46,166 bases of DNA, from the NCBI GenBank assembly GCA_017760785.1, contig GCA_017760785.1_4320.1, one strand, 5' to 3'. Each line of letters begins with the position of its first letter. Within the stretch, counting starts at the first letter, position 1. Below, piece after piece: positions 3,707 to 42,174 of the stretch. The notes beneath the pieces were generated by a model. It saw nothing but the letters and a program-made list of their open reading frames with translations. It was not told the origin of the DNA and made no database searches. The DNA comes from a phage. Position numbers and translations under genes: made by a program.

Positions 3707-3748
3707 CACCCTTATTTGTCATTGGTGCAGCATGTAAATTTATATAAT
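3704..3748 (+). promoter_or_regulatory. variant motif promoter (TAGCAC half-site, TATAAT)
   Basis: half motif plus -10 before 3763 ORF. Confidence 0.4.
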
Positions 3749-3762
3749 TAGGAGTATACAAC

Positions 3763-3891
3763 ATGAATAAGGCAAAAATTATCGCTGATATGCTTAAGAT
3801 TGCCGACCGTCTGAATAAAATCGTTGCGGAGATGGAGATCAGAAAGCAAGACATGATCACCAAATCCAAACGACAAACCTCCACTCTTTGA
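3763..3891 (+). CDS. hypothetical 42-aa protein
   Basis: hand-translated ORF below track cutoff; own motif promoter and AGGAG SD. Confidence 0.4.
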   Translation: MNKAKIIADMLKIADRLNKIVAEMEIRKQDMITKSKRQTSTL

Positions 3892-3896
3892 ATAGA

Positions 3897-4097: not shown

Positions 4098-4342
4098 TAG
4101 TTGAAACCGGACGCGCCGCTGTATGGGCGCATTGTGGAGAGGCTGGCTTGCAAGATGACATTAAGCATATATCCAGCTTCTTTTACATAAAAGACATTAG
4201 TGTCGTGTTCAATGGCAAATTCTCTTACATGAATGAGCGCCCAAGAAAATACGTAAGAGTTAAGCCAGGTGTTAGAATTGATGTTAACGAGTTCCTTAAA
4301 TCTGAGGGATTCAAGTTTAAGATAACGAAGCCCAAGGGTTGA
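4094..4342 (+). CDS. hypothetical small protein
   Basis: ORF; start overlaps previous stop. Confidence 0.4.
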   Translation: MIVETGRAAVWAHCGEAGLQDDIKHISSFFYIKDISVVFNGKFSYMNERPRKYVRVKPGVRIDVNEFLKSEGFKFKITKPKG

Positions 4343-4344
4343 TC

Positions 4345-4491
4345 ATGAAGCCGCACGAATATTCAGCGTTAGTTAATGGGTTGCTTGAGGTTGCTATAAA
4401 ATTCAAGGATACGCAGCAGTTAAGAGAGCAGCTATCACGAGAATTTTCAAGGCATGGTATTAGACCGAACCATAAGATGAAAAAGGATTGA
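4345..4491 (+). CDS. hypothetical 48-aa protein
   Basis: hand-translated ORF between track ORFs. Confidence 0.35.
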   Translation: MKPHEYSALVNGLLEVAIKFKDTQQLREQLSREFSRHGIRPNHKMKKD

Positions 4492-7413: not shown

Positions 7414-7641
7414 ATGGAGGATCACATGAGGGAAGTAATCAATGCTGCTACGGCGTCAACTGGAGGGGCAGCGGTAACTGGTGCGGCAACTGGTCAGATG
7501 ACCATAGCGATAATCAGCCTTATCGCTTTAATCATTTTTGGTGCCTGGGGCGCTTACTGGAAGTTCAAAGATAGCCAGGCGATTCGAAGAGCGCTTGAAT
7601 CGGGAGACTTGAAAACAGCAATCAATATAAGGAGCAAATAA
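7414..7641 (+). CDS. holin, pinholin-like, possible dual start
   Basis: two Met three codons apart (7414, 7426); weak Gly/Ala-rich TMD1 plus hydrophobic TMD2; directly precedes endolysin. Confidence 0.6.
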   Translation: MEDHMREVINAATASTGGAAVTGAATGQMTIAIISLIALIIFGAWGAYWKFKDSQAIRRALESGDLKTAINIRSK

Positions 7642-8127
7642 ATGAAGCAGAAGCTGCTAATTAGCGCGGCTACGGCTGCGGCAATATACATCGCAGCTCC
7701 GCTTATTGAGCTCGTTGAGGGTGTGGAGAACAAGCCTTACATGGACATTGCCGGAATCCCTACAGTTTGTTCCGGTATTACCGGTCCAGATGTGGTCTGG
7801 GGTAAAACGTACAGCAACAGGGAATGCCGGAACCTGCTGGAGAAGCACATCAAGATTCATGCTAAGTATGTTCAGGATGCTGTAACCTACCCAATTGCAC
7901 CGCAGACAAGGGCGGCGTTAATCAGCTTTAGCTACAATGTTGGTGGTTCAGCGATGAGGAAATCAACTGCCGTTAAGTTAATTAACCAGGGTAAGATTGA
8001 GCGGGGTTGCAAGGCTCTCGGTATGTGGACAAAGGCTACAGTTAATGGCAGGAAGGTTGTCGTTAAGGGTTTAGTAAATCGCAGGAATGAGGAGATTAAG
8101 TTATGTTTAAGCGGATTGCAGCGTTAG
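7642..8127 (+). CDS. SAR endolysin, T4-lysozyme family
   Basis: N-terminal Ala/Gly-rich signal-anchor; catalytic E-x8-D-x5-T spacing. Confidence 0.75.
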   Translation: MKQKLLISAATAAAIYIAAPLIELVEGVENKPYMDIAGIPTVCSGITGPDVVWGKTYSNRECRNLLEKHIKIHAKYVQDAVTYPIAPQTRAALISFSYNVGGSAMRKSTAVKLINQGKIERGCKALGMWTKATVNGRKVVVKGLVNRRNEEIKLCLSGLQR

Positions 8128-8492
8128 TAATGTGCGTAGCTTTGTCTGGATGCTCAGCAACATCCGCACTGACCGGATTAATTGGCAGTAAGCCAGAGGT
8201 TAGCGCCCAGGCTGGCGCCGAGAACAATAAGGTTGGTGTTGGGTTAACGAACAAGTTTGACTCCAGCAACTCCAGTGAAGCCACGGTTAAAGATTCTAAG
8301 GTTGGGTCACTGGATAGCTCGAGCGGAAAAAAGACTGCTGACAACTCGATTAAGGCCTCAAGAATCACTGCCGAAAAGATTGAAATTACCAATAACGAAT
8401 CATCCGCGCTTCCGTGGGTTGGAACGGGAGCTATGGGGTTGCTGGTTTTAATTCTCATGGCATTAATCTTAAGACGTAAAAAAGCCTCCTAA
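8103..8492 (+). CDS. unimolecular spanin-like lipoprotein
   Basis: N-terminal lipobox LSGC plus C-terminal TMD and basic tail; overlaps endolysin end. Confidence 0.6.
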   Translation: MFKRIAALVMCVALSGCSATSALTGLIGSKPEVSAQAGAENNKVGVGLTNKFDSSNSSEATVKDSKVGSLDSSSGKKTADNSIKASRITAEKIEITNNESSALPWVGTGAMGLLVLILMALILRRKKAS

Positions 8493-10857: not shown

Positions 10858-11018
10858 TTTGTTACTCTCTTCGTTGTCCACATGAATTTGTTTGGTACTG
10901 ATTTGCGCACGATGCACACCACAATCTTATCAACCTTCTGAACTAAACCGTAAATCTTTCCGTCTAGCGACGCCCTGAAAACCGTCCACTCCATTTCGTT
11001 GTGAAAGTTATCGAACAT
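10854..11018 (-). CDS. hypothetical 54-aa protein
   Basis: hand-translated ORF directly after motif promoter; stop overlaps next start. Confidence 0.3.
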   Translation of the reverse strand: MFDNFHNEMEWTVFRASLDGKIYGLVQKVDKIVVCIVRKSVPNKFMWTTKRVTK

Positions 11019-11050
11019 GCTTGCTTACTCTCTTTCGTTTCGATGAGGTA

Positions 11051-11093: not shown

Positions 11094-11471
11094 TACGCCA
11101 TAATCTATCTTAACCAGTTTCCCTTTGTAGTATCCAAAGTTCTTTGGAAAAGCGTCGTACTCAAAGAAATCACGGTCAAGCGTTCTATATTCATCATTAT
11201 CAACGTCATCATATAGCTTTTGCAGGTCGGATTTAAAAAGCTCCTCATTATCAACTGGCTCAGCCTTATGCATCACAACCATTAGGCCGAACCTGTTTGA
11301 GTATGCTATTGGGCACAGGTTCTTGTTATCAACCCCCTTCCATTGGCCCTCAGTCATGTTGCTGAGCATCCCCTGCACAAAGGCCTTCCAGGAATTAAAT
11401 CTCGGGAACTTAATCGCATACTTTTTTGTGATTAGTACAAGCCTGGTCCCACCACTTCTATTTAGTTTCAT
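11091..11471 (-). CDS. hypothetical protein
   Basis: 126-aa ORF with AAGGA SD; stop lies in TAGCAC motif. Confidence 0.5.
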   Translation of the reverse strand: MKLNRSGGTRLVLITKKYAIKFPRFNSWKAFVQGMLSNMTEGQWKGVDNKNLCPIAYSNRFGLMVVMHKAEPVDNEELFKSDLQKLYDDVDNDEYRTLDRDFFEYDAFPKNFGYYKGKLVKIDYGV

Positions 11472-11616: not shown

Positions 11617-11619
11617 CTT

Positions 11620-11811
11620 TTACGCCTCCATAATGTATTCAAACTCGGATGTAAACAATGGAAGATCCCTTCCGGCAGGAGTCTTGATACTAACCTCGCC
11701 CGACTCATACTGGTGAATAACTTCGTAAACTCCCCCGATCTCCACCCCGTAGAATTCTCTCTCGTATTTACCGTGTTTTGTTTGAAAGTTGATTAATTTA
11801 ATCTTCATCAT
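11620..11811 (-). CDS. small protein, paralogue of 12227-12421
   Basis: shares YG-x3-GGVYEV-x3-YE core with 12227-12421 product. Confidence 0.45.
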   Translation of the reverse strand: MMKIKLINFQTKHGKYEREFYGVEIGGVYEVIHQYESGEVSIKTPAGRDLPLFTSEFEYIMEA

Positions 11812-12237: not shown

Positions 12238-12421
12238 AGATTTCAACCTCTCTATTGTAGAGCATAACATTACGGCCATACTTGTTAACCACTACAATTG
12301 CCTCAAGTTCAGCATAAGTAGTTACCACTTCATACACGCCGCCTTGATTGATGCCATAGTACTCATACACTTCATCATAAATATCACCACAGAAATCAAG
12401 CTCAATAACCTTTACTTTCAT
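12227..12421 (-). CDS. small protein, paralogue of 11620-11811
   Basis: first gene after minus-strand motif promoter at 12449-12492. Confidence 0.5.
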   Translation of the reverse strand: MKVKVIELDFCGDIYDEVYEYYGINQGGVYEVVTTYAELEAIVVVNKYGRNVMLYNREVEIYED

Positions 12422-15445: not shown

Positions 15446-15615
15446 ATCTTGACAAAGAGGTATTAAGAGGTAATTTCATAGCTCACGGAATTGATGATAA
15501 AGAGTTCCTGGATTGGTTCCTTGATAAAAAAGTTGATGAGCTTGGTTTGTACTGGTTCTCAACTGGTGCGACAATGTACGAGGCATGGATGGCAGCAATG
15601 GAGACTAAGAAATGA
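15442..15615 (+). CDS. hypothetical 57-aa protein
   Basis: hand-translated; ATGA overlap with previous stop. Confidence 0.35.
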   Translation: MNLDKEVLRGNFIAHGIDDKEFLDWFLDKKVDELGLYWFSTGATMYEAWMAAMETKK

Positions 15616-15827: not shown

Positions 15828-16040
15828 ATGAAAATTGAAATTATCGACGTGGACTACAGACCAGAGGTAGACGTACTGACTCTTGGTGAGTGTGGATTTG
15901 AAGTTGGCGACGTAGTTGAAGTGTCCGGTCACTACGTTGATGGCAACCTTTTAATCCAGGCTATCCGTGGTAATGAGTTCGTGAGTGTAGGAAATGAAGT
16001 AAGCGCAAGCGAGCATGAATATAAGGTGGTTGAGGAATGA
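15828..16040 (+). CDS. hypothetical protein
   Basis: ORF after motif promoter at 15755. Confidence 0.45.
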   Translation: MKIEIIDVDYRPEVDVLTLGECGFEVGDVVEVSGHYVDGNLLIQAIRGNEFVSVGNEVSASEHEYKVVEE

Positions 16041-17330: not shown

Positions 17331-17408
17331 GCTCCGCTAGCTCAATGGGATAGCAGCAACGACCTTCTAAGTCGTAGGTTGCTGGTTCGAATCCAGTGCG
17401 GAGCGCCA
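17331..17408 (+). tRNA. tRNA-Arg (anticodon TCT)
   Basis: acceptor stem GCTCCGC/GCGGAGC, anticodon stem ACGAC/GTCGT with loop CTTCTAA, T-loop TTCGAAT, 3' GCCA; D-arm atypical. Confidence 0.7.
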
Positions 17409-17508
17409 AAAAACGCCAGATTAGCTATCTGGAAGTCTTCGAGTGCAAGCCGCTGGTTATCCTTGTGGTAATTATGCTTGCAGCGGAGCGCAAATAAAGG
17501 AGTTCATT

Positions 17509-23964: not shown

Positions 23965-24210
23965 ATGATTCGCTTAGAACACACTGGCGCTTGCCTTATC
24001 GTTTACAAAGGTGAGAAATATTTACCTGGTGACACTTTCGAGGTTGATGTAATTTGCGACGGCCTTAAGCGCTTAATCGCAGAAGGTAAGCTCGCTATTG
24101 AGGGTGACTTCAAAGCAACCAAGCAAATCGCGCAAGAAGTTGTTAGTAAGAAAAAGCGCAAAGAACCGAAAACCATCTCCGAAGCTGAGACTGGTAACGA
24201 GTACAAATAA
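23965..24210 (+). CDS. hypothetical protein, insulated transcription unit
   Basis: 81-aa ORF bracketed by terminators with own -10. Confidence 0.4.
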   Translation: MIRLEHTGACLIVYKGEKYLPGDTFEVDVICDGLKRLIAEGKLAIEGDFKATKQIAQEVVSKKKRKEPKTISEAETGNEYK

Positions 24211-24213
24211 CAA

Positions 24214-24238
24214 ATAGGGCGCTTCGGCGTCCTTTATT
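24214..24238 (+). terminator. probable terminator
   Basis: AGGGCGC-TTCG-GCGTCCT (one G-U) then TTTATT. Confidence 0.5.
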
Positions 24239-24251
24239 GTATGGAGCTAAT

Positions 24252-24359
24252 ATGTTGTTATTTTTAGCAGTTATGTCACTACTACTATTCATCCCGCTAT
24301 CATTGGTTGGTCTGATTCTTCTCATTGGATTCATTAAAGGCGGGGATTACTGGAGGTAA
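24252..24359 (+). CDS. 35-aa single-TM hydrophobic peptide
   Basis: hand-translated MLLFLAVMSLLLFIPLSLVGLILLIGFIKGGDYWR; GGAG SD. Confidence 0.3.
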   Translation: MLLFLAVMSLLLFIPLSLVGLILLIGFIKGGDYWR

Positions 24360-24360
24360 T

Positions 24361-24762
24361 ATGAATGATGCAATTTTGGCGTTTATGCGCTCGCTTGTTC
24401 CTGCTCTCAAAGTAGTGGATGACGAATCAATTAATGTATGGATTGATTTGGCACGTCTATACGTATGCGAAAGCAAGTTTGGCGCAGACAAAGATAAGGC
24501 TGTTGGCCTTTATGCACTACACCTGATGCTTGCTGATGGCGCATTTAAGGGAGAGAGTGAAGGGCTTGAAACATACAGTCGTAGAATGGCGAGTTATGCA
24601 CTGAGCGGTGAGTTCTCTATCACCTATGATAACCAATCAGCAATCCAGGGTGATTTGCCATCTTCCTCCTGGGGCCGTATGTATAAGGCACTTCTCCGCA
24701 AGAAAGGTGGCGGCTTCGGTTTAATTACTTCCGCCGGTGGCGGTGGGTGTGGTTGCCGATGA
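24361..24762 (+). CDS. head-tail connector/head completion protein (positional)
   Basis: ATG 24361 with GGAGGT SD; position. Confidence 0.5.
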   Translation: MNDAILAFMRSLVPALKVVDDESINVWIDLARLYVCESKFGADKDKAVGLYALHLMLADGAFKGESEGLETYSRRMASYALSGEFSITYDNQSAIQGDLPSSSWGRMYKALLRKKGGGFGLITSAGGGGCGCR

Positions 24763-27690: not shown

Positions 27691-30669
27691 ATGGCAACAA
27701 ATGAATTAGCCGGAATCACACTAGCCGTAGATGTATCGCAAGTAGACAGGGGTACACAATCCCTACAGAAGTTCAGGCAGGCAAACCAACAGGCTGCTTC
27801 TGGTATTAGTGAGTTCGTTAATGCCGAGCAGGTTGCTAAAAACCAGGCTAGAGATACAGCGCGCGCACTTGCTGAGCAAAAGGCATCTTTGGCTAAATTG
27901 CAAACTGCCATTGATCCAACTGCGGCAAAGTTCCGTAAACTCCAGGAGGCAGCGGTAGGTCTTGATAAGGCTTTCGCGGCTGGCGTAGTTCCTGATGAGG
28001 AGTTTTTCCGGTTAGGTGAGGCACTTGAAACGCAGAACGCAAAACTTGCTCGCTCACGTGCGGCGCTAACTGAAGAAGGAAGAGCGGCGGCACAGTCTGC
28101 TAAGGATAAGGCAAAAGCAAAGGCTGAAGCGGATAGATTCATTGCATCACTTGAGCGACAGGCTCAGGCTGCAACATTGACGCGTGAGGAGTACTTAAAG
28201 TTACAAGCGGCTCAGCTTGGCGTTAGTTCCCAGGCTGCACCCATCATTGACAGAATCGCCGACGCATCACAGAAGGCAAACACCCAGTTAATTGCTCAGA
28301 GTAAGGCTTTTCAGAAATCAGGATTAAGCGCGGGGCAATACAAGAACGCGATTTCTCAGCTGCCAGCGCAGATTACTGATATAGGTACCTCTCTCGCTGG
28401 TGGCATTCCGATTTGGCTTATTGCAATTCAGCAAGGTGGGCAAATTAAGGATGCTTTTGGTGGTATTGGTAACACCTTTAGATTCGCGCTTGCAGCCTTA
28501 AACCCATTCAATGTAGCTGTTGGTGTTTTGGGTGGGGTACTTGTAGCTCTTGGTGTTGGTGCGGCTCAGGCTGAAAGTGAATTCAGAGCATTAAACTCCG
28601 CAATTGCGTTCTCCAACAACTCTACAATCGCATCAATCTCGCAGGTTAGAGAGTTGGTTAGCTCTGTTTCTGATGCAACAGGTGCCACTAGGGGACTTGT
28701 GACTAGTATCGCAACAATCCTTATTGAGCAGGGGAATCTTACGCTAACGCAGATTGACAAGATTACCAAATCAACCGCCAGATGGGCGCAGCTTACCGGA
28801 AAGGATGCAAAGGAGATTACTGGTTACTATAACCAGATTGCAAGCGACCCAATCCAGGGTTTAGTTGATTTGGATAAGCGCTTTAACTTCCTCACGCAGG
28901 GGCAGTTGACGACAATCGAAAACCTGAGAAAGACAAAGGGAGATGTTGAGGCCGTTACCGCCGCAATTGACATTTTCAGCAAGTCGCAGGAAGCCAACCT
29001 TAACGACATAGCAGCGCAGTTAACTCCACTTGAGTTGGCATGGAATGATTTTAGGAAGTACATCTCTGATATCTGGGATGCAATTAGCCGCAGAACGGTA
29101 GGCGCTTTAAACTTGTTTGTTGATGTAATCGCCGGAACAATTGAGCAAATCAAGGTCTTCATTAACCAGGGCGACGTGCTGATTGGTGAATTTGTAGTTA
29201 GCGCAACCCGGGCATTGCAGAACATTCCTGGTCTTGATGGCGTTGGTGATGATGTTATCAAGGGTCAGCAAAAGATTATCGATGCGGCTAAGAAACAAAA
29301 CCTTGAGCTAGAAAAGTCTATCAGGGAGCGAGATTCAAGAATCAGGGAAGGAGAGCTTGGTTACATTACTCGCAGAGAAAATCAGAATACCAATGAGCAG
29401 TCAGGGACTGATGAGGAGTTCTCAAAAAGGAAGAAGGCACTTCAGGATGAGCTTGATGCGATCAAGAAGAACAGGAAAGAAGAAAATGGTAGAGTTAAGG
29501 AGCAAAGAGACCTTACAATTGGTTACGAATCTGGCGTGTTGGCGCTCCAGGCTCAGCTCAAGGTTATTCAGGAAAACAGGGATATCGGCGCAGTAATAAG
29601 CAATGAGCGCAAGCAGTACCTTCAGGAAGAGGCTAAATTCAGGATCCTTGAGCAAAGGCAAATTGATGGCTCAATTACCAAAGAGCAAGCAAGACTTCTC
29701 ATTGAAAAGGATAAAGTTCTTGAGTTAGCTAGACAGAAAGCTGAGCTAGGTGATCAGATTGTTTTGCAGGAGCGCGCCAATAAGCTGGCTGAAGATAACC
29801 GCAAGAAGATTCTTCAGATTAACAACGAAGCAAGTAACATAGATTTGGGTGCTGGCCTGTCTTCTCGGGAACAGCAAAGAGCTAAAGAGATTCAGGCTCT
29901 TCAGTCCAATCAGATTAATGCTGGTGGTTCTGTTGGTGATGTTGATTTTAAGCAGTTGCTGGAGGCAAGGAAGGAGTACTACAAGCAGGAGGATAATCTT
30001 AGGTCTGATTGGCAATCCGGTGTAACATCCACTCTCGCTGACTTGACTGAGAAGTACACTGACTACAACCAGATTGCTAAGGATTTAACTGTTGCAGCAT
30101 TCGACGGGATTACAGACCAGATCACGAATCTTGTGACCACTGGTGAGACTAATTTCAGAGATTTCACAGCAAGCATCCTCAAAATGATTGCGAAGATTGC
30201 AACTCAGTTACTTTTGGTTAAGGCTATAGAATCAACATTAACTAGTTTTGGTGGTGGAGGAGGTAACGCATTTGGCTCTTTTGCGTCTGCTATAGGTTTT
30301 GCTGGCGGTGGCTACACTGGTGATGGCGGCAAGTATCAGCCAGCAGGAACGGTTCATCGTGGAGAGTTTGTATTCACAAAGGAAGCAACAAGCCGAATTG
30401 GTGTTAAGAACCTATACGCACTAATGAAGGGTTATGCAAACGGCGGCGCTGTTGGTGGTCCATCTGGTTATGCAAATGGCGGCTTTGTTTCTGGTGGTAC
30501 AGATGTTAATGTTAGCGGCATCACCGTTAACGTTAATGGTGGCGTTGGTAGCGACCCAGAACAAGCCAAGGCACTGCAAAGCGGAGTCAAGGCAATCGTA
30601 GCGGAAGAGATTGCGCAGTCTTTCCAGCAGGGTGGAAGGGCTTATGCTTACTTGAGAGGTTTTAACTAA
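27691..30669 (+). CDS. tail tape measure protein
   Basis: 992 aa, coiled-coil rich, Gly-rich C-terminus. Confidence 0.85.
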   Translation: MATNELAGITLAVDVSQVDRGTQSLQKFRQANQQAASGISEFVNAEQVAKNQARDTARALAEQKASLAKLQTAIDPTAAKFRKLQEAAVGLDKAFAAGVVPDEEFFRLGEALETQNAKLARSRAALTEEGRAAAQSAKDKAKAKAEADRFIASLERQAQAATLTREEYLKLQAAQLGVSSQAAPIIDRIADASQKANTQLIAQSKAFQKSGLSAGQYKNAISQLPAQITDIGTSLAGGIPIWLIAIQQGGQIKDAFGGIGNTFRFALAALNPFNVAVGVLGGVLVALGVGAAQAESEFRALNSAIAFSNNSTIASISQVRELVSSVSDATGATRGLVTSIATILIEQGNLTLTQIDKITKSTARWAQLTGKDAKEITGYYNQIASDPIQGLVDLDKRFNFLTQGQLTTIENLRKTKGDVEAVTAAIDIFSKSQEANLNDIAAQLTPLELAWNDFRKYISDIWDAISRRTVGALNLFVDVIAGTIEQIKVFINQGDVLIGEFVVSATRALQNIPGLDGVGDDVIKGQQKIIDAAKKQNLELEKSIRERDSRIREGELGYITRRENQNTNEQSGTDEEFSKRKKALQDELDAIKKNRKEENGRVKEQRDLTIGYESGVLALQAQLKVIQENRDIGAVISNERKQYLQEEAKFRILEQRQIDGSITKEQARLLIEKDKVLELARQKAELGDQIVLQERANKLAEDNRKKILQINNEASNIDLGAGLSSREQQRAKEIQALQSNQINAGGSVGDVDFKQLLEARKEYYKQEDNLRSDWQSGVTSTLADLTEKYTDYNQIAKDLTVAAFDGITDQITNLVTTGETNFRDFTASILKMIAKIATQLLLVKAIESTLTSFGGGGGNAFGSFASAIGFAGGGYTGDGGKYQPAGTVHRGEFVFTKEATSRIGVKNLYALMKGYANGGAVGGPSGYANGGFVSGGTDVNVSGITVNVNGGVGSDPEQAKALQSGVKAIVAEEIAQSFQQGGRAYAYLRGFN

Positions 30670-40218: not shown

Positions 40219-40413
40219 ATGACCTACTACATTATCAAAGAGAAAAACAACGCACTGTTCTGCGACTGCTACTTTGGTGGCCCAGCCGGATACACCACAG
40301 ATAAGAACGAGGCTGACAGATTCGAGACAAAAGAAAGAGCCAGAGATTTTCTGACTGGTTACCTCACTGAGGAAGATTTAAAGTCGGTTAAAGTAGTTAA
40401 GGTTAAGGGGTGA
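40219..40413 (+). CDS. hypothetical protein
   Basis: 64-aa ORF after ATTGG palindrome promoter. Confidence 0.45.
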   Translation: MTYYIIKEKNNALFCDCYFGGPAGYTTDKNEADRFETKERARDFLTGYLTEEDLKSVKVVKVKG

Positions 40414-40416
40414 AAC

Positions 40417-40578
40417 ATGAAGATAAAGGTGTTTATAACTGAAGAAGAGATGCAGCAGCTAGGCGCTAATACGGACGTTGATGTTGCTAAAATCATAACG
40501 TATGATCTTAAAAACAGTGATTGCTATGATGAGTTTCCATATCCTGACTTTCGAGTTATTGTTAACATAGAGGATTGA
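40417..40578 (+). CDS. hypothetical 53-aa protein
   Basis: hand-translated ORF between track ORFs. Confidence 0.35.
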   Translation: MKIKVFITEEEMQQLGANTDVDVAKIITYDLKNSDCYDEFPYPDFRVIVNIED

Positions 40579-40581
40579 TAT

Positions 40582-41547
40582 ATGTCTTTTAAAGTCTACA
40601 CGCGAGAAGAGTTAAGCAACGAGGATTACCACTCAGAGCAAGACCACATCTCCGGTAGCTCGCTTGTTGAGATTATCCAGGGCTCACCAGCTAAGTGGAA
40701 ATTTAAACAGCGCAATAGCGATAGCAAGGCTCTTAAGTTTGGCACGCTGAGTCACATGTATATCCTCGAAGGTGACATGTTTGATAAAGAGTATCTTAGA
40801 GCAACAGACCTTGATGCGATTGAGGGCTTAATTACAAGCCAGGCTGGATTATCGGCAGCGCTTAAAAAAGTTGGTGTAGCCGGCACATCCGGGAAGGGCT
40901 ATAGCGAGCTAGTAGAGATGATGTATCGCTCTGGTGAGGATTGGGATGTTAAATGGCTAATTGAGCAGCAGGAAAGCGCTCAGGCTCTTGTAGAGGGTAA
41001 GGAGCTGGTTAGCGCAGCAGACTATGACAAGGTTGTAGCTATGCGTGAAGTTCTTTGCAATATCCCGGCATATAATGCAATCGTGAACAGTGAGACGGCT
41101 CAGAAAGAGTTATCGATCTTCGGTGAGATTCTAGGTGTTGGGGTTAAGATCCGAATCGACCATGTTGATGTTATTGATGGCGTTGTCAGGATCACAGATT
41201 ACAAAACGACCGCAGATGCAAGCCCTGAAGGATTTGGTAAGTCAGCATTCAATCACGGATATCTTGCAAAAATGGCACTTCAGCGCGATCTGTTTGTGAA
41301 GGCATTCAACGAGAAACGAAAGGTTGTTGTAGGATTACTGGCGCAGGAGAAGGTAGAGCCATATTTACCAATGCTGTACACCTTGACGGACGAACAGCTA
41401 CGAATTGGCCGCTTGCAGTATCTTGAGGCGCTTGCCACATACAAGAAGTGTAAGGAGCTAGATATCTGGCCTGGATATTCGAACGGCATTGCAGAGCAAG
41501 AGCTATTAGTTCCTGAGTGGGCGATTAAACAATATAGAGAGATATAA
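40582..41547 (+). CDS. PD-(D/E)xK recombination exonuclease
   Basis: RIDHVDVIDG...ITDYKT motif; adjacent to erf and ssb. Confidence 0.6.
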   Translation: MSFKVYTREELSNEDYHSEQDHISGSSLVEIIQGSPAKWKFKQRNSDSKALKFGTLSHMYILEGDMFDKEYLRATDLDAIEGLITSQAGLSAALKKVGVAGTSGKGYSELVEMMYRSGEDWDVKWLIEQQESAQALVEGKELVSAADYDKVVAMREVLCNIPAYNAIVNSETAQKELSIFGEILGVGVKIRIDHVDVIDGVVRITDYKTTADASPEGFGKSAFNHGYLAKMALQRDLFVKAFNEKRKVVVGLLAQEKVEPYLPMLYTLTDEQLRIGRLQYLEALATYKKCKELDIWPGYSNGIAEQELLVPEWAIKQYREI

Positions 41548-42057: not shown

Positions 42058-42088
42058 AACCATATCAACAACAAACGAGGTTAAAGTT

Positions 42089-42163
42089 ATGAATCTTCAC
42101 CCACTTACATATATCCACATTATCGCCTGGATCGTTTTATTCATTTACTTATTCAATCGATAA
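42089..42163 (+). CDS. 24-aa hydrophobic peptide (speculative)
   Basis: hand-translated MNLHPLTYIHIIAWIVLFIYLFNR; GAGGTT SD. Confidence 0.25.
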   Translation: MNLHPLTYIHIIAWIVLFIYLFNR

Positions 42164-42174
42164 GGATTTTAAAA

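What the first reader, a model, noticed from the sequence alone, without database searches (positions are those of the whole stretch)
24252..24359. 35-codon single-TM peptide ORF inside the head-tail gene block
Between terminator 24214-24238 and the connector gene lies an ORF below the track cutoff, encoding MLLFLAVMSLLLFIPLSLVGLILLIGFIKGGDYWR: one hydrophobic helix then a short polar tail. It has a GGAG ribosome-binding site and its stop is one nucleotide before the next ATG. Small membrane peptides are easily missed and can modulate lysis or host membrane proteins. A similar 24-codon ORF sits at 42089-42163.
Basis: seen in the sequence. Interest (0 to 1): 0.35.

Follow-up and report, generated by a model that had tools for sequence, protein, structure and literature searches.

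The report
Unannotated membrane micro-gene cassette in phage
A 35-codon gene for a one-helix membrane peptide sits on a 109-base cassette inserted between a virion gene's ribosome-binding site and its start codon; it looks like a real but dispensable accessory gene found in only a few related phages, and its function is unknown.

Summary
ORF 24252-24359 encodes MLLFLAVMSLLLFIPLSLVGLILLIGFIKGGDYWR, with a GGAG Shine-Dalgarno (SD) site 5 nt upstream, a terminator hairpin before it, and a stop 1 nt before the next ATG.

The window is an Rtp-like coliphage (Drexlerviridae, Braunvirinae). The ORF fills a 109-nt segment (24252-24360) bounded by a 13-nt repeat, TGGAG[C/G]TAATATG. About 105 of 109 related phage records lack the segment exactly. 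In those, the same SD and ATG start the gp45-like head-tail gene directly. Only Rtp (unannotated), ETEP102 (wrong frame annotated) and CY1 (unannotated) carry it.

Where present, the frame is intact and dN/dS is 0.11-0.50, against roughly 0.8-4 in the other frames. The ORF is less diverged than its flanking genes. Carriers are not each other's closest relatives.

No homolog or family was found anywhere searched, and no RNA alternative has support.

Verdict: a genuine, almost certainly translated, late-expressed accessory micro-gene of the moron type, but without its own promoter or terminator. It acts on or in the inner membrane. Lysis timing and injection exclusion are guesses only. A second small ORF at 42089-42163 has the same insertion architecture. 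Interest is modest.

The parts
23965..24210 (+). Upstream resident gene (T1 gp46 / rtp28 homolog, DUF7444, phrog_2716), 81 aa
24216..24243 (+). Intrinsic-terminator-like hairpin (24216-24233, 7 bp, 5 GC pairs, loop TTCG) plus T-rich tail. Conserved in carriers and non-carriers across Drexlerviridae. Probably attenuates transcription into the head-completion and tail genes.
24242..24254 (+). Left copy of the 13-nt junction repeat TGGAGCTAATATG. This is the resident SD (GGAG 24243-24246) plus ATG. In non-carriers it initiates the gp45-like gene; here it initiates the small ORF.
24252..24360 (+). The 109-nt presence/absence cassette (ORF plus 1 nt). 37.6% GC and 40% T, against 43.9% GC for the genome.
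24252..24359 (+). Small ORF, 35 aa: one roughly 27-residue hydrophobic helix (with P15, G20, G26), then the tail KGGDYWR. Predicted N-out/C-in by the positive-inside rule (inference).
24351..24363 (+). Right copy of the repeat, TGGAGGTAATATG. The ORF's last codons (TGG AGG TAA) form a replacement SD (GGAGG 24352-24356) for the gp45-like gene, whose ATG is at 24361.
24361..24762 (+). Downstream resident gene (T1 gp45 / rtp29 homolog, DUF4054, phrog_302 virion structural protein; head-to-tail connector/adaptor in some annotations)

Best explanation
This is a real, translated, non-essential accessory gene on a minimal 109-nt cassette.

Shown: the cassette lies exactly between the Shine-Dalgarno (SD) sequence and the start codon of the gp45-like head-tail gene. 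The small ORF takes over the resident SD and ATG context. Its last two sense codons (TGG AGG) recreate an SD for the displaced gene, whose ATG follows the stop by 1 nt. The cassette has no promoter or terminator of its own and sits just downstream of the hairpin that ends the capsid/gp46-like transcript.

Inferred: it is transcribed by read-through of the late structural operon, made late in infection, and translationally coupled to the downstream gene. The product is a 35-aa single-pass peptide with its short positively charged C-tail in the cytoplasm. It inserts into the host inner membrane and acts there.

Shown: the cassette comes and goes as a unit. Either recombination between the 13-nt SD-ATG repeats removes it precisely, or ordinary recombination in the flanks between co-infecting relatives transfers it.

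Biochemical role is guessed, not shown. My leading guess is a modulator of late membrane events. Rough absolute probabilities: about 0.2 for holin or proton-motive-force-dependent lysis timing, about 0.15 for HK97-gp15-like blocking of incoming phage DNA, and the remainder for some other membrane target.
For: (1) ORF, SD, stop and start geometry are as described.

(2) In ACG-M12, SU57, JeanPiccard, CEB_EC3a, DTL, IME253, 12210I and metagenomic relatives, the identical sequence ...GTATGGAGCTAAT-ATG starts the gp45-like gene directly. The SD and ATG used by the small ORF are therefore a proven initiation site.

(3) Of 109 matching phage records, only Rtp (2 records), ETEP102 and CY1 carry the segment. 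More distant Drexlerviridae all have hairpin-SD-ATG with no ORF.

(4) The frame is intact, with no indel, in all four lineages.

(5) dN/dS in the ORF frame is 0.11-0.50, against about 0.8-4 in the other two frames. Third-position enrichment has p about 0.03. The synonymous excess gives Fisher p = 0.0004-0.001 for pairs involving ETEP102.

(6) Between distant carriers the ORF is far less diverged than its neighbours. Window versus ETEP102: ORF dS 0.41 and dN 0.046, against flank dS 1.3-2.9 and dN 0.31-0.33. Similarity forms an island of 82-93% over the terminator plus ORF.

(7) Carriers are not each other's nearest relatives. The cassette is the only segment of the genome shared by all carriers and absent from four complete non-carriers.

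(8) It behaves like ten other clean short inserts in this genome, most of which hold one complete 42-126-aa ORF.

(9) There is no support for an RNA element.
Against: - Only four sequences of 35 codons are available. Statistical power is low: window versus Rtp and ETEP102 versus CY1 are not individually significant.
- The C-terminal tail varies (GGDYWR, GGASWR, GGPSWR, GDLFRRFYE). In CY1 the stop is lost and the ORF runs 3 codons into the next gene.
- Rarity, about 4% of relatives, shows the gene is dispensable.
- T-rich DNA encodes hydrophobic peptides by default.
- The similarity island is only about the 90th percentile genome-wide against ETEP102, and only moderately above the median against CY1. 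Horizontal transfer is therefore suggested, not proven.
- No homolog exists in any library or database, so nothing anchors a function.
- The holin is equally conserved in carriers and non-carriers.
- There is no expression data.
Confidence: 0.65

Rival explanations
1. Translated but unselected 'proto-gene'. A T-rich 109-nt insertion happened to land behind a strong SD with an open frame. It is tolerated because it restores an SD for the downstream gene, and the peptide has no selected function.
For: - It is rare and dispensable.
- It has no homolog anywhere.
- It is GC-poor and T-rich.
- A 36-codon open frame in random sequence is not improbable (roughly 0.1-0.2, my estimate).
- The C-tail is variable and CY1 has lost the stop.
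- Some pairwise dN/dS tests are not significant.
Against: - The frame and TM core are kept with no indel at ORF dS up to 0.69.
- dN/dS is as low as 0.11-0.13.
- Window versus ETEP102 dN is 7-fold lower than in the flanking essential genes.
- The cassette persists in four lineages whose flanks are saturated at synonymous sites, even though a 13-nt repeat makes precise loss easy.
Confidence: 0.2
2. Translational-coupling device. The point is the act of translating a short upstream ORF, which tunes or membrane-localises expression of the gp45-like head-tail gene. The peptide itself is incidental.
For: The stop is 1 nt before the downstream ATG, with an SD embedded in the last codons. In CY1 the ORF overlaps the downstream start. 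The cassette follows an attenuating terminator, a place where expression levels are being set.
Against: About 100 relatives express the same gene from a plain SD, so no leader is needed. Selection acts on the amino-acid sequence of the TM core, not merely on keeping the frame open. The replacement SD (GGAGG, 4-nt spacer) would function on its own.
Confidence: 0.1
3. A non-coding element (sRNA, terminator extension, mobile-element scar), or the gene is really the antisense ORF 24334-24143.
For: - An antisense frame is open across the segment in Rtp, ETEP102 and CY1.
- A 19-nt imperfect inverted repeat brackets the terminator.
Against: - No Rfam match lies in the segment.
- The fold is no better than shuffles, z = -0.9.
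- The substitution pattern is codon-like in the sense frame. In the antisense frame it would place most changes at first codon positions.
- The antisense ORF varies from 50 to 132 aa, has no SD by my reading of the sequence, runs through the hairpin and lies antisense to a structural gene.
- There are no terminal inverted repeats typical of mobile elements.
Confidence: 0.03

Closest known systems
Moron elements, in particular HK97 gene 15 (gp15, YebO-like inner-membrane superinfection-exclusion protein in the tail operon) (PMC3594210)
   Same: Both are extra DNA between two structural-operon genes that are adjacent in relatives. Both have deviating base composition and a sporadic, horizontally patterned distribution. 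Both encode a small inner-membrane protein that is not a virion part.
   Different: This cassette has no promoter or terminator of its own. It borrows the resident SD and donates a new one. The phage is virulent, so there is no prophage expression. The peptide is much smaller at 35 aa. Pfam and NCBIfam scans returned no family at all for the peptide, so no YebO similarity was detected. Exclusion activity is untested.
Holins and antiholins of the T1/Rtp lysis cassette (window 7414-7641, phrog_2877)
   Same: Both have a single TMD followed by a positively charged juxtamembrane segment, and late expression is expected for both. There is a weak local similarity, LSLVGLILLIGFIKGGDYWR against IAIISLIALIIFGAWGAYWK.
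   Different: The ORF lies 17 kb from the lysis genes. It has no significant family match. The similarity is compositional: it is lost in the CY1 variant, and the terminal WR is forced by the SD. The holin does not covary with cassette presence. The 8-aa tail is far shorter than a holin C-terminal domain.
Bacterial small hydrophobic peptides: type I toxins (Hok, Ldr, TisB, Ibs) and small membrane regulators (AcrZ, KdpF, MgrB). Named from general knowledge, not tested by alignment.
   Same: Both are 20-50 aa with one TMD and a short charged or aromatic tail, are routinely missed by annotation, and act by binding larger membrane proteins or perturbing the membrane.
   Different: There is no sequence relationship. 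No matching DNA exists in 5,426 E. coli genomes or 72,556 plasmids. No antisense-RNA partner is evident.
Single-gene cassette mosaicism at gene boundaries in tailed phages
   Same: Ten other clean inserts in this same genome behave in the same way, and some are bounded by 10-16-nt repeats covering translation signals.
   Different: This is the only such insert inside the structural block in this comparison. It and the 42086-42168 insert are the smallest and the only ones encoding TM peptides.

Membership tests
Protein-coding gene (generic criteria) | SD at proper spacing, plus a start codon | tested here: met
   GGAG lies 5 nt before ATG 24252. The same site starts the gp45-like gene in non-carriers.
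Protein-coding gene (generic criteria) | Reading frame preserved in relatives that have the sequence | tested here: met
   Four lineages have no indel and peptides of 35-38 aa.
Protein-coding gene (generic criteria) | Purifying selection (dN/dS below 1, third-position bias) | tested here: met
   dN/dS is 0.11-0.50 against about 0.8-4 in the other frames. Binomial p is about 0.03. Fisher p is 0.0004-0.04 in 3 of 5 pairs tested. Power is low because only 4 sequences exist.
Protein-coding gene (generic criteria) | Detected product or ribosome occupancy | not testable with these tools
   No expression data are available. No exact product is on record in public gene calls.
Moron (as defined in PMC3594210) | Extra DNA between genes that are adjacent in related phages | tested here: met
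   The 109 nt are absent from about 105 of 109 records with an exact junction.
Moron (as defined in PMC3594210) | Own promoter | tested here: not met
   No sigma-70-like site lies in or just before the cassette. The 109 nt are entirely ORF plus SD.
Moron (as defined in PMC3594210) | Own terminator | tested here: not met
   The only hairpin (24216-24233) is upstream and is resident in all relatives. None follows the ORF.
Moron (as defined in PMC3594210) | Base composition different from the surroundings | tested here: met
   The cassette is 37.6% GC, against 43.5-47.8% in the flanks and 43.9% for the genome. A TM-coding sequence is expected to be T-rich in any case.
Moron (as defined in PMC3594210) | Expressed from a repressed prophage to benefit the host | not testable with these tools
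   Drexlerviridae are described as virulent in the papers listed. I did not look for lysogeny genes in the window.
Holin / antiholin | At least one TMD and a charged C-terminal cytoplasmic domain | tested here: inconclusive
   One TMD is present, but the tail is only 8 aa with net charge +1 to +2.
Holin / antiholin | Encoded in the lysis cassette next to the endolysin or spanin | tested here: not met
   The lysis cassette is at 7414-8492. The ORF is at 24252.
Holin / antiholin | Sequence membership of a holin family | tested here: not met
   PHROGs and Pfam give nothing significant. The echo to the resident holin TMD is not robust.
HK97 gp15 / YebO-type exclusion protein | Sequence similarity to the YebO family | tested here: not met
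   The peptide gave no Pfam or NCBIfam hit.
HK97 gp15 / YebO-type exclusion protein | Blocks DNA entry of superinfecting phage | not testable with these tools
   This needs efficiency-of-plating assays with the peptide expressed in trans.
Type I toxin peptide | Small hydrophobic single-TMD peptide | tested here: met
Type I toxin peptide | Paired antisense RNA antitoxin, or family homology | tested here: not met
   There is no minus-strand promoter-like site, no Rfam hit and no family hit.

The most novel reading that the evidence does not exclude
The 109-nt unit, and its analogue at 42086-42168, represent a class of minimal mobile genes in virulent phages that could be called 'SD-swapping micro-cassettes'. 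Each captures a resident ribosome-binding site, pays back a new one, spreads between divergent lineages by recombination at translation-initiation repeats, and delivers a single-helix membrane effector. The 35-aa peptide would be a late-acting regulator, for example an antiholin-like lysis timer or an inner-membrane injection blocker. That would make it about the smallest functional moron known.
Probability: 0.2. Interest if true: 0.55.

Novelty: new member of a known kind. Interest (0 to 1): 0.3.

Why it matters
If the peptide is functional, the long-studied phage Rtp and its relatives carry a missed gene. It is absent from the Rtp and CY1 annotations, and the wrong frame is annotated in ETEP102. 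More generally, annotation pipelines overlook a layer of 20-40-aa membrane effectors in phages.

The cassette also shows how a gene can be inserted into a tightly packed essential operon without disturbing it, by borrowing one ribosome-binding site and supplying another.

Natural isogenic-like pairs exist, since carriers and non-carriers are more than 90% identical in the flanks. A precise 109-nt deletion would reproduce the junction type seen in non-carriers. The function is therefore unusually easy to test.

If the peptide turns out to have no selected function, it is still a tidy example of a translated proto-gene.

Tried and rejected
- tblastn of the peptide against 50,697 phage records found no match. 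The low-complexity filter masks it, so this is uninformative.
- The word-indexed search of 5.8 billion proteins found no candidate.
- The exhaustive phmmer search of 1.84 billion representatives gave one hit, P0001. It is an artefact: a 1,406-aa protein with about 25 tandem copies of SLLLATPLSLPGL, so a chance match is summed over the repeats.
- Back-translated DNA patterns found only Rtp itself in IMG/VR. They found nothing in two metagenome scans and two genome scans.
- The exact-product look-up found nothing.
- PHROGs, Pfam, NCBIfam, PADLOC and PDB sequences gave nothing significant.
- A search for source DNA in E. coli genomes and plasmids found nothing.
- A search for a paralog inside the window found none.
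- Holin-derived origin or a holin partner: the alignment beats 4,997 of 5,000 shuffles, but shuffling destroys the TMD-then-tail layout. The CY1 variant scores near background, WR is dictated by the SD, and the holin does not covary. I rejected this as evidence and kept it as a lead.
- RNA element: rejected.
- Strong claim of recent horizontal transfer: toned down after the genome-wide control placed the island at only about the 90th percentile.
- Structure prediction was not attempted. It would say nothing beyond 'helix' for a 35-aa TMD.

Full report
**1. What is in the sequence**

The ORF is real. ATG is at 24252 and TAA at 24357-24359, giving 35 codons that translate to MLLFLAVMSLLLFIPLSLVGLILLIGFIKGGDYWR. 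GGAG (24243-24246) lies 5 nt upstream. A terminator-like hairpin (24216-24233: 7 bp, 5 GC pairs, TTCG loop, T-rich tail) precedes it. The next gene's ATG (24361) follows the stop by one base.

The first 28 residues average Kyte-Doolittle 2.79, and the 8-residue tail is net positive. Among 90 small ATG-ORFs (25-60 aa) on the + strand, it is the only one with a TM-grade stretch. Longer versions starting at a TTG (window) or an ATG (Rtp) begin inside the hairpin and are not conserved.

**2. Context**

The window is a complete or near-complete Rtp-like coliphage genome (Drexlerviridae, Braunvirinae). Its best relatives are about 87% identical over about 70% of the genome, so it is its own species-level lineage.

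The ORF lies between the homolog of T1 gp46/rtp28 (DUF7444) and the homolog of T1 gp45/rtp29. The latter is DUF4054 / phrog_302 'virion structural protein' and is called a head-to-tail connector or adaptor in some records. The lysis cassette (holin 7414-7641, endolysin, spanin) is 17 kb away.

**3. The ORF is a presence/absence cassette**

Aligning the window, Rtp and ACG-M12 shows a clean 109-nt indel (24252-24360). It is bounded by a 13-nt near-repeat: TGGAGCTAATATG at 24242 and TGGAGGTAATATG at 24351. This pair is the only occurrence in the genome, against 0.09 expected by chance.

In non-carriers the left copy's SD and ATG start the gp45-like gene directly. In carriers they start the small ORF. 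The ORF's last codons, TGG AGG TAA, rebuild an SD for the displaced gene.

Of 109 phage records matching this intergenic region, only Rtp (two records), ETEP102 and CY1 cover the segment. Other Braunvirinae and more distant Drexlerviridae from IMG/VR all show stop-hairpin-SD-ATG with a gap of roughly 40-50 nt. That simpler layout is therefore the widespread, probably ancestral, state.

The ORF is unannotated in Rtp, although that record annotates ORFs of 19 and 30 aa. It is also unannotated in CY1. In ETEP102 the depositors annotated a different frame that starts in the hairpin.

**4. Is it coding?**

The four versions keep the frame with no indel:

| Phage | Peptide |
|---|---|
| window | ...LLLFIPLSLVGLILLIGFIKGGDYWR |
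| Rtp | ...LLISIPLAFVGLILLIGFIKGGASWR |
| ETEP102 | ...LLLFIPLSLVGLILLIGFIKGGPSWR |
| CY1 | MSLFLAVMSVLLFIPMSLVGLILIAAFINGDLFRRFYE |

- Pairwise dN/dS in this frame is 0.11-0.50, against about 0.8-4 in the two other sense frames.
- Variable columns fall 9, 8 and 17 by codon position (p about 0.03).
- The synonymous excess is significant for pairs with ETEP102 (Fisher p = 0.0004 and 0.001). It is marginal or not significant for the others.
- The in-register antisense frame is open in three phages, but it would carry most changes at first codon positions. It has no SD by my reading of the sequence and varies from 50 to 132 aa.
- No Rfam family matches the segment. The fold is no more stable than shuffles (z = -0.9), apart from the resident hairpin.

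I conclude that it is a protein-coding gene under purifying selection. The caveat is that four 35-codon sequences give limited power.

**5. Evolutionary behaviour**

Carriers are not each other's closest relatives. The window's flanking genes are 91-96% identical to non-carriers such as CEB_EC3a and ACG-M12, but only 67-79% identical to ETEP102 and CY1.

Yet the ORF is 77-90% identical among carriers. Its dS (0.21-0.69) is well below that of the flanking genes for distant pairs (1.3 to saturated). Window versus ETEP102 dN is 0.046, against 0.31-0.33 in the flanks.

A sliding comparison shows an island of 82-93% over the hairpin plus ORF, against 45-80% in the flanks. Rtp and ETEP102 also share a variant of the hairpin's left flank.

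A genome-wide control tempers this. The island is about the 90th percentile of alignable windows against ETEP102, and only moderately above the median against CY1. So horizontal exchange of the cassette, strong constraint on it, or both are indicated, but not proven.

The non-carrier DTL has GGAGG, the right-copy spelling, at its junction. This is compatible with loss by recombination between the repeats, but it is a single base.

The cassette is the only segment of the whole genome shared by all carriers and absent from four complete non-carriers. It therefore has no co-inherited partner gene.

**6. It fits a general pattern**

Comparing the window with five complete relatives reveals twelve clean short inserts. 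Most of the other ten contain one complete 42-126-aa ORF and lie at gene borders in the early or non-structural regions. Some are flanked by 10-16-nt repeats that include translation signals.

The 109-nt cassette is the only one inside the structural block.

- In CEB_EC3a the SD GAGGTTAAAG is followed directly by the ATG of the Erf-like gene.
- In the window and in AugustePiccard that SD starts the small hydrophobic ORF, and the insert ends with a new SD (TAAGGATTTTAAAAATG).

This ORF shares no sequence with the first. Its coding evidence is weaker: by my count from the alignment, one comparison shows 3 nonsynonymous and 2 synonymous codon changes.

**7. Function**

Nothing anchors a function. 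There is no hit in PHROGs, Pfam, NCBIfam, PADLOC or PDB sequences. There is no hit in the 5.8-billion-protein index, and only a repeat artefact in the exhaustive 1.84-billion search. Metagenome, genome, E. coli and plasmid DNA searches found nothing.

What can be inferred is the following:

- Late transcription by read-through of the attenuating hairpin.
- Efficient initiation at a proven SD.
- Coupling to the downstream gene.
- Membrane insertion with the positive tail inside.

A weak resemblance to the resident holin's TMD and juxtamembrane YWK does not survive scrutiny. The holin does not covary with the cassette.

By analogy with HK97 gp15, a small inner-membrane exclusion protein encoded by a moron in a tail operon (PMC3594210), and with holin/antiholin systems, the two most plausible roles are lysis timing and injection exclusion. 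Both are guesses.

**8. Comparison and novelty**

It works like a moron, being added accessory DNA in a structural operon that encodes a membrane protein. It fails two defining features: it has no promoter and no terminator of its own. It is not a member of any holin, YebO or toxin family by sequence.

It is best filed as a new ORFan family of a known kind: a small accessory membrane protein carried on a single-gene cassette. The SD-borrowing and SD-replacing design is neat, but it follows from inserting a gene at a start codon.

**9. Verdict**

| Question | Answer |
|---|---|
| Observation | Confirmed |
| Interpretation | Partly supported: the gene is real, the function is unproven |
| Confidence that it is a genuine, selected, translated membrane micro-gene | About 0.65 |
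| Interest | 0.3. Worth an annotation fix and a simple deletion experiment, but not surprising to a phage specialist |

Noticed in passing
window 42086-42168 (ORF 42089-42163); L027 (AugustePiccard MZ501051, about 28190-28264): A second micro-cassette has the same design. The resident SD of the Erf-like recombinase gene (42175) is captured by a 24-aa hydrophobic ORF, and the insert supplies a new SD. Only AugustePiccard, of 92 matching records, shares it. It is unannotated there. It has no sequence similarity to the 35-aa peptide.
   Followed up: partly
window 3710-3895, 4341-4482, 10864-11030, 11095-11469, 11618-11805, 12238-12416, 15446-15603, 15840-16035, 40409-40587: Nine further clean short inserts relative to five complete relatives. 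Most hold one whole 42-126-aa ORF at gene borders, and several are bounded by 8-13-nt direct repeats. Accessory-gene turnover in this phage group proceeds by single-gene cassettes.
   Followed up: partly
window 17410-17485, next to tRNA-Arg(TCT) at 17331-17408: A 76-nt insert lies immediately 3' of a phage tRNA-Arg gene. It is flanked by GCGGAGCGCCAAAAAA / GCGGAGCGCAAATAAA, so the tRNA 3' end appears to be partly duplicated. The meaning is unknown.
   Followed up: no
L004 599-721 (ETEP102_31, OR979723 15496-15618); L005 727 (CY1_00053 start): Probable annotation errors in relatives. ETEP102_31 is called in a frame that begins inside the terminator hairpin, rather than the conserved TM-peptide frame (621/636-743). 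CY1_00053 (gp45-like) is extended upstream into the small-ORF region instead of starting at the conserved MNEQ... ATG.
   Followed up: yes
window 7414-7641 versus 24297-24356: The T1-type holin (phrog_2877) TMD plus 'GAYWK' weakly echoes the peptide's TMD plus 'GDYWR'. The score of 42 is reached by 3 of 5,000 shuffles. This is probably compositional.
   Followed up: yes
window 24195-24213 / 24255-24273: A 19-nt, 79%-complementary inverted repeat brackets the terminator hairpin, pairing the end of the gp46-like gene with the first codons of the small ORF. It could extend the hairpin in carriers only. Not evaluated.
   Followed up: no
L014 (DTL), junction upstream of the gp45-like ATG: The non-carrier DTL spells its SD as GGAGGTAAT, the right-hand repeat version found in carriers, rather than GGAGCTAAT. 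This is compatible with secondary loss of the cassette by repeat recombination, or with a simple SNP.
   Followed up: no
phage records MG065688 (Campylobacter phage A110b), PP134917 (Pseudomonas phage PsgS01F): Records labelled with Campylobacter or Pseudomonas hosts are about 90% identical to these E. coli Rtp-like phages over the structural region. The host labels look doubtful, for example through contaminating coliphage.
   Followed up: no
L034 33051-33659 (CY1_00051): CY1 carries an extra 609-nt gene ('DNA-binding protein') between the major capsid gene and the gp46-like gene. This is another accessory insertion in the structural block of a carrier.
   Followed up: no
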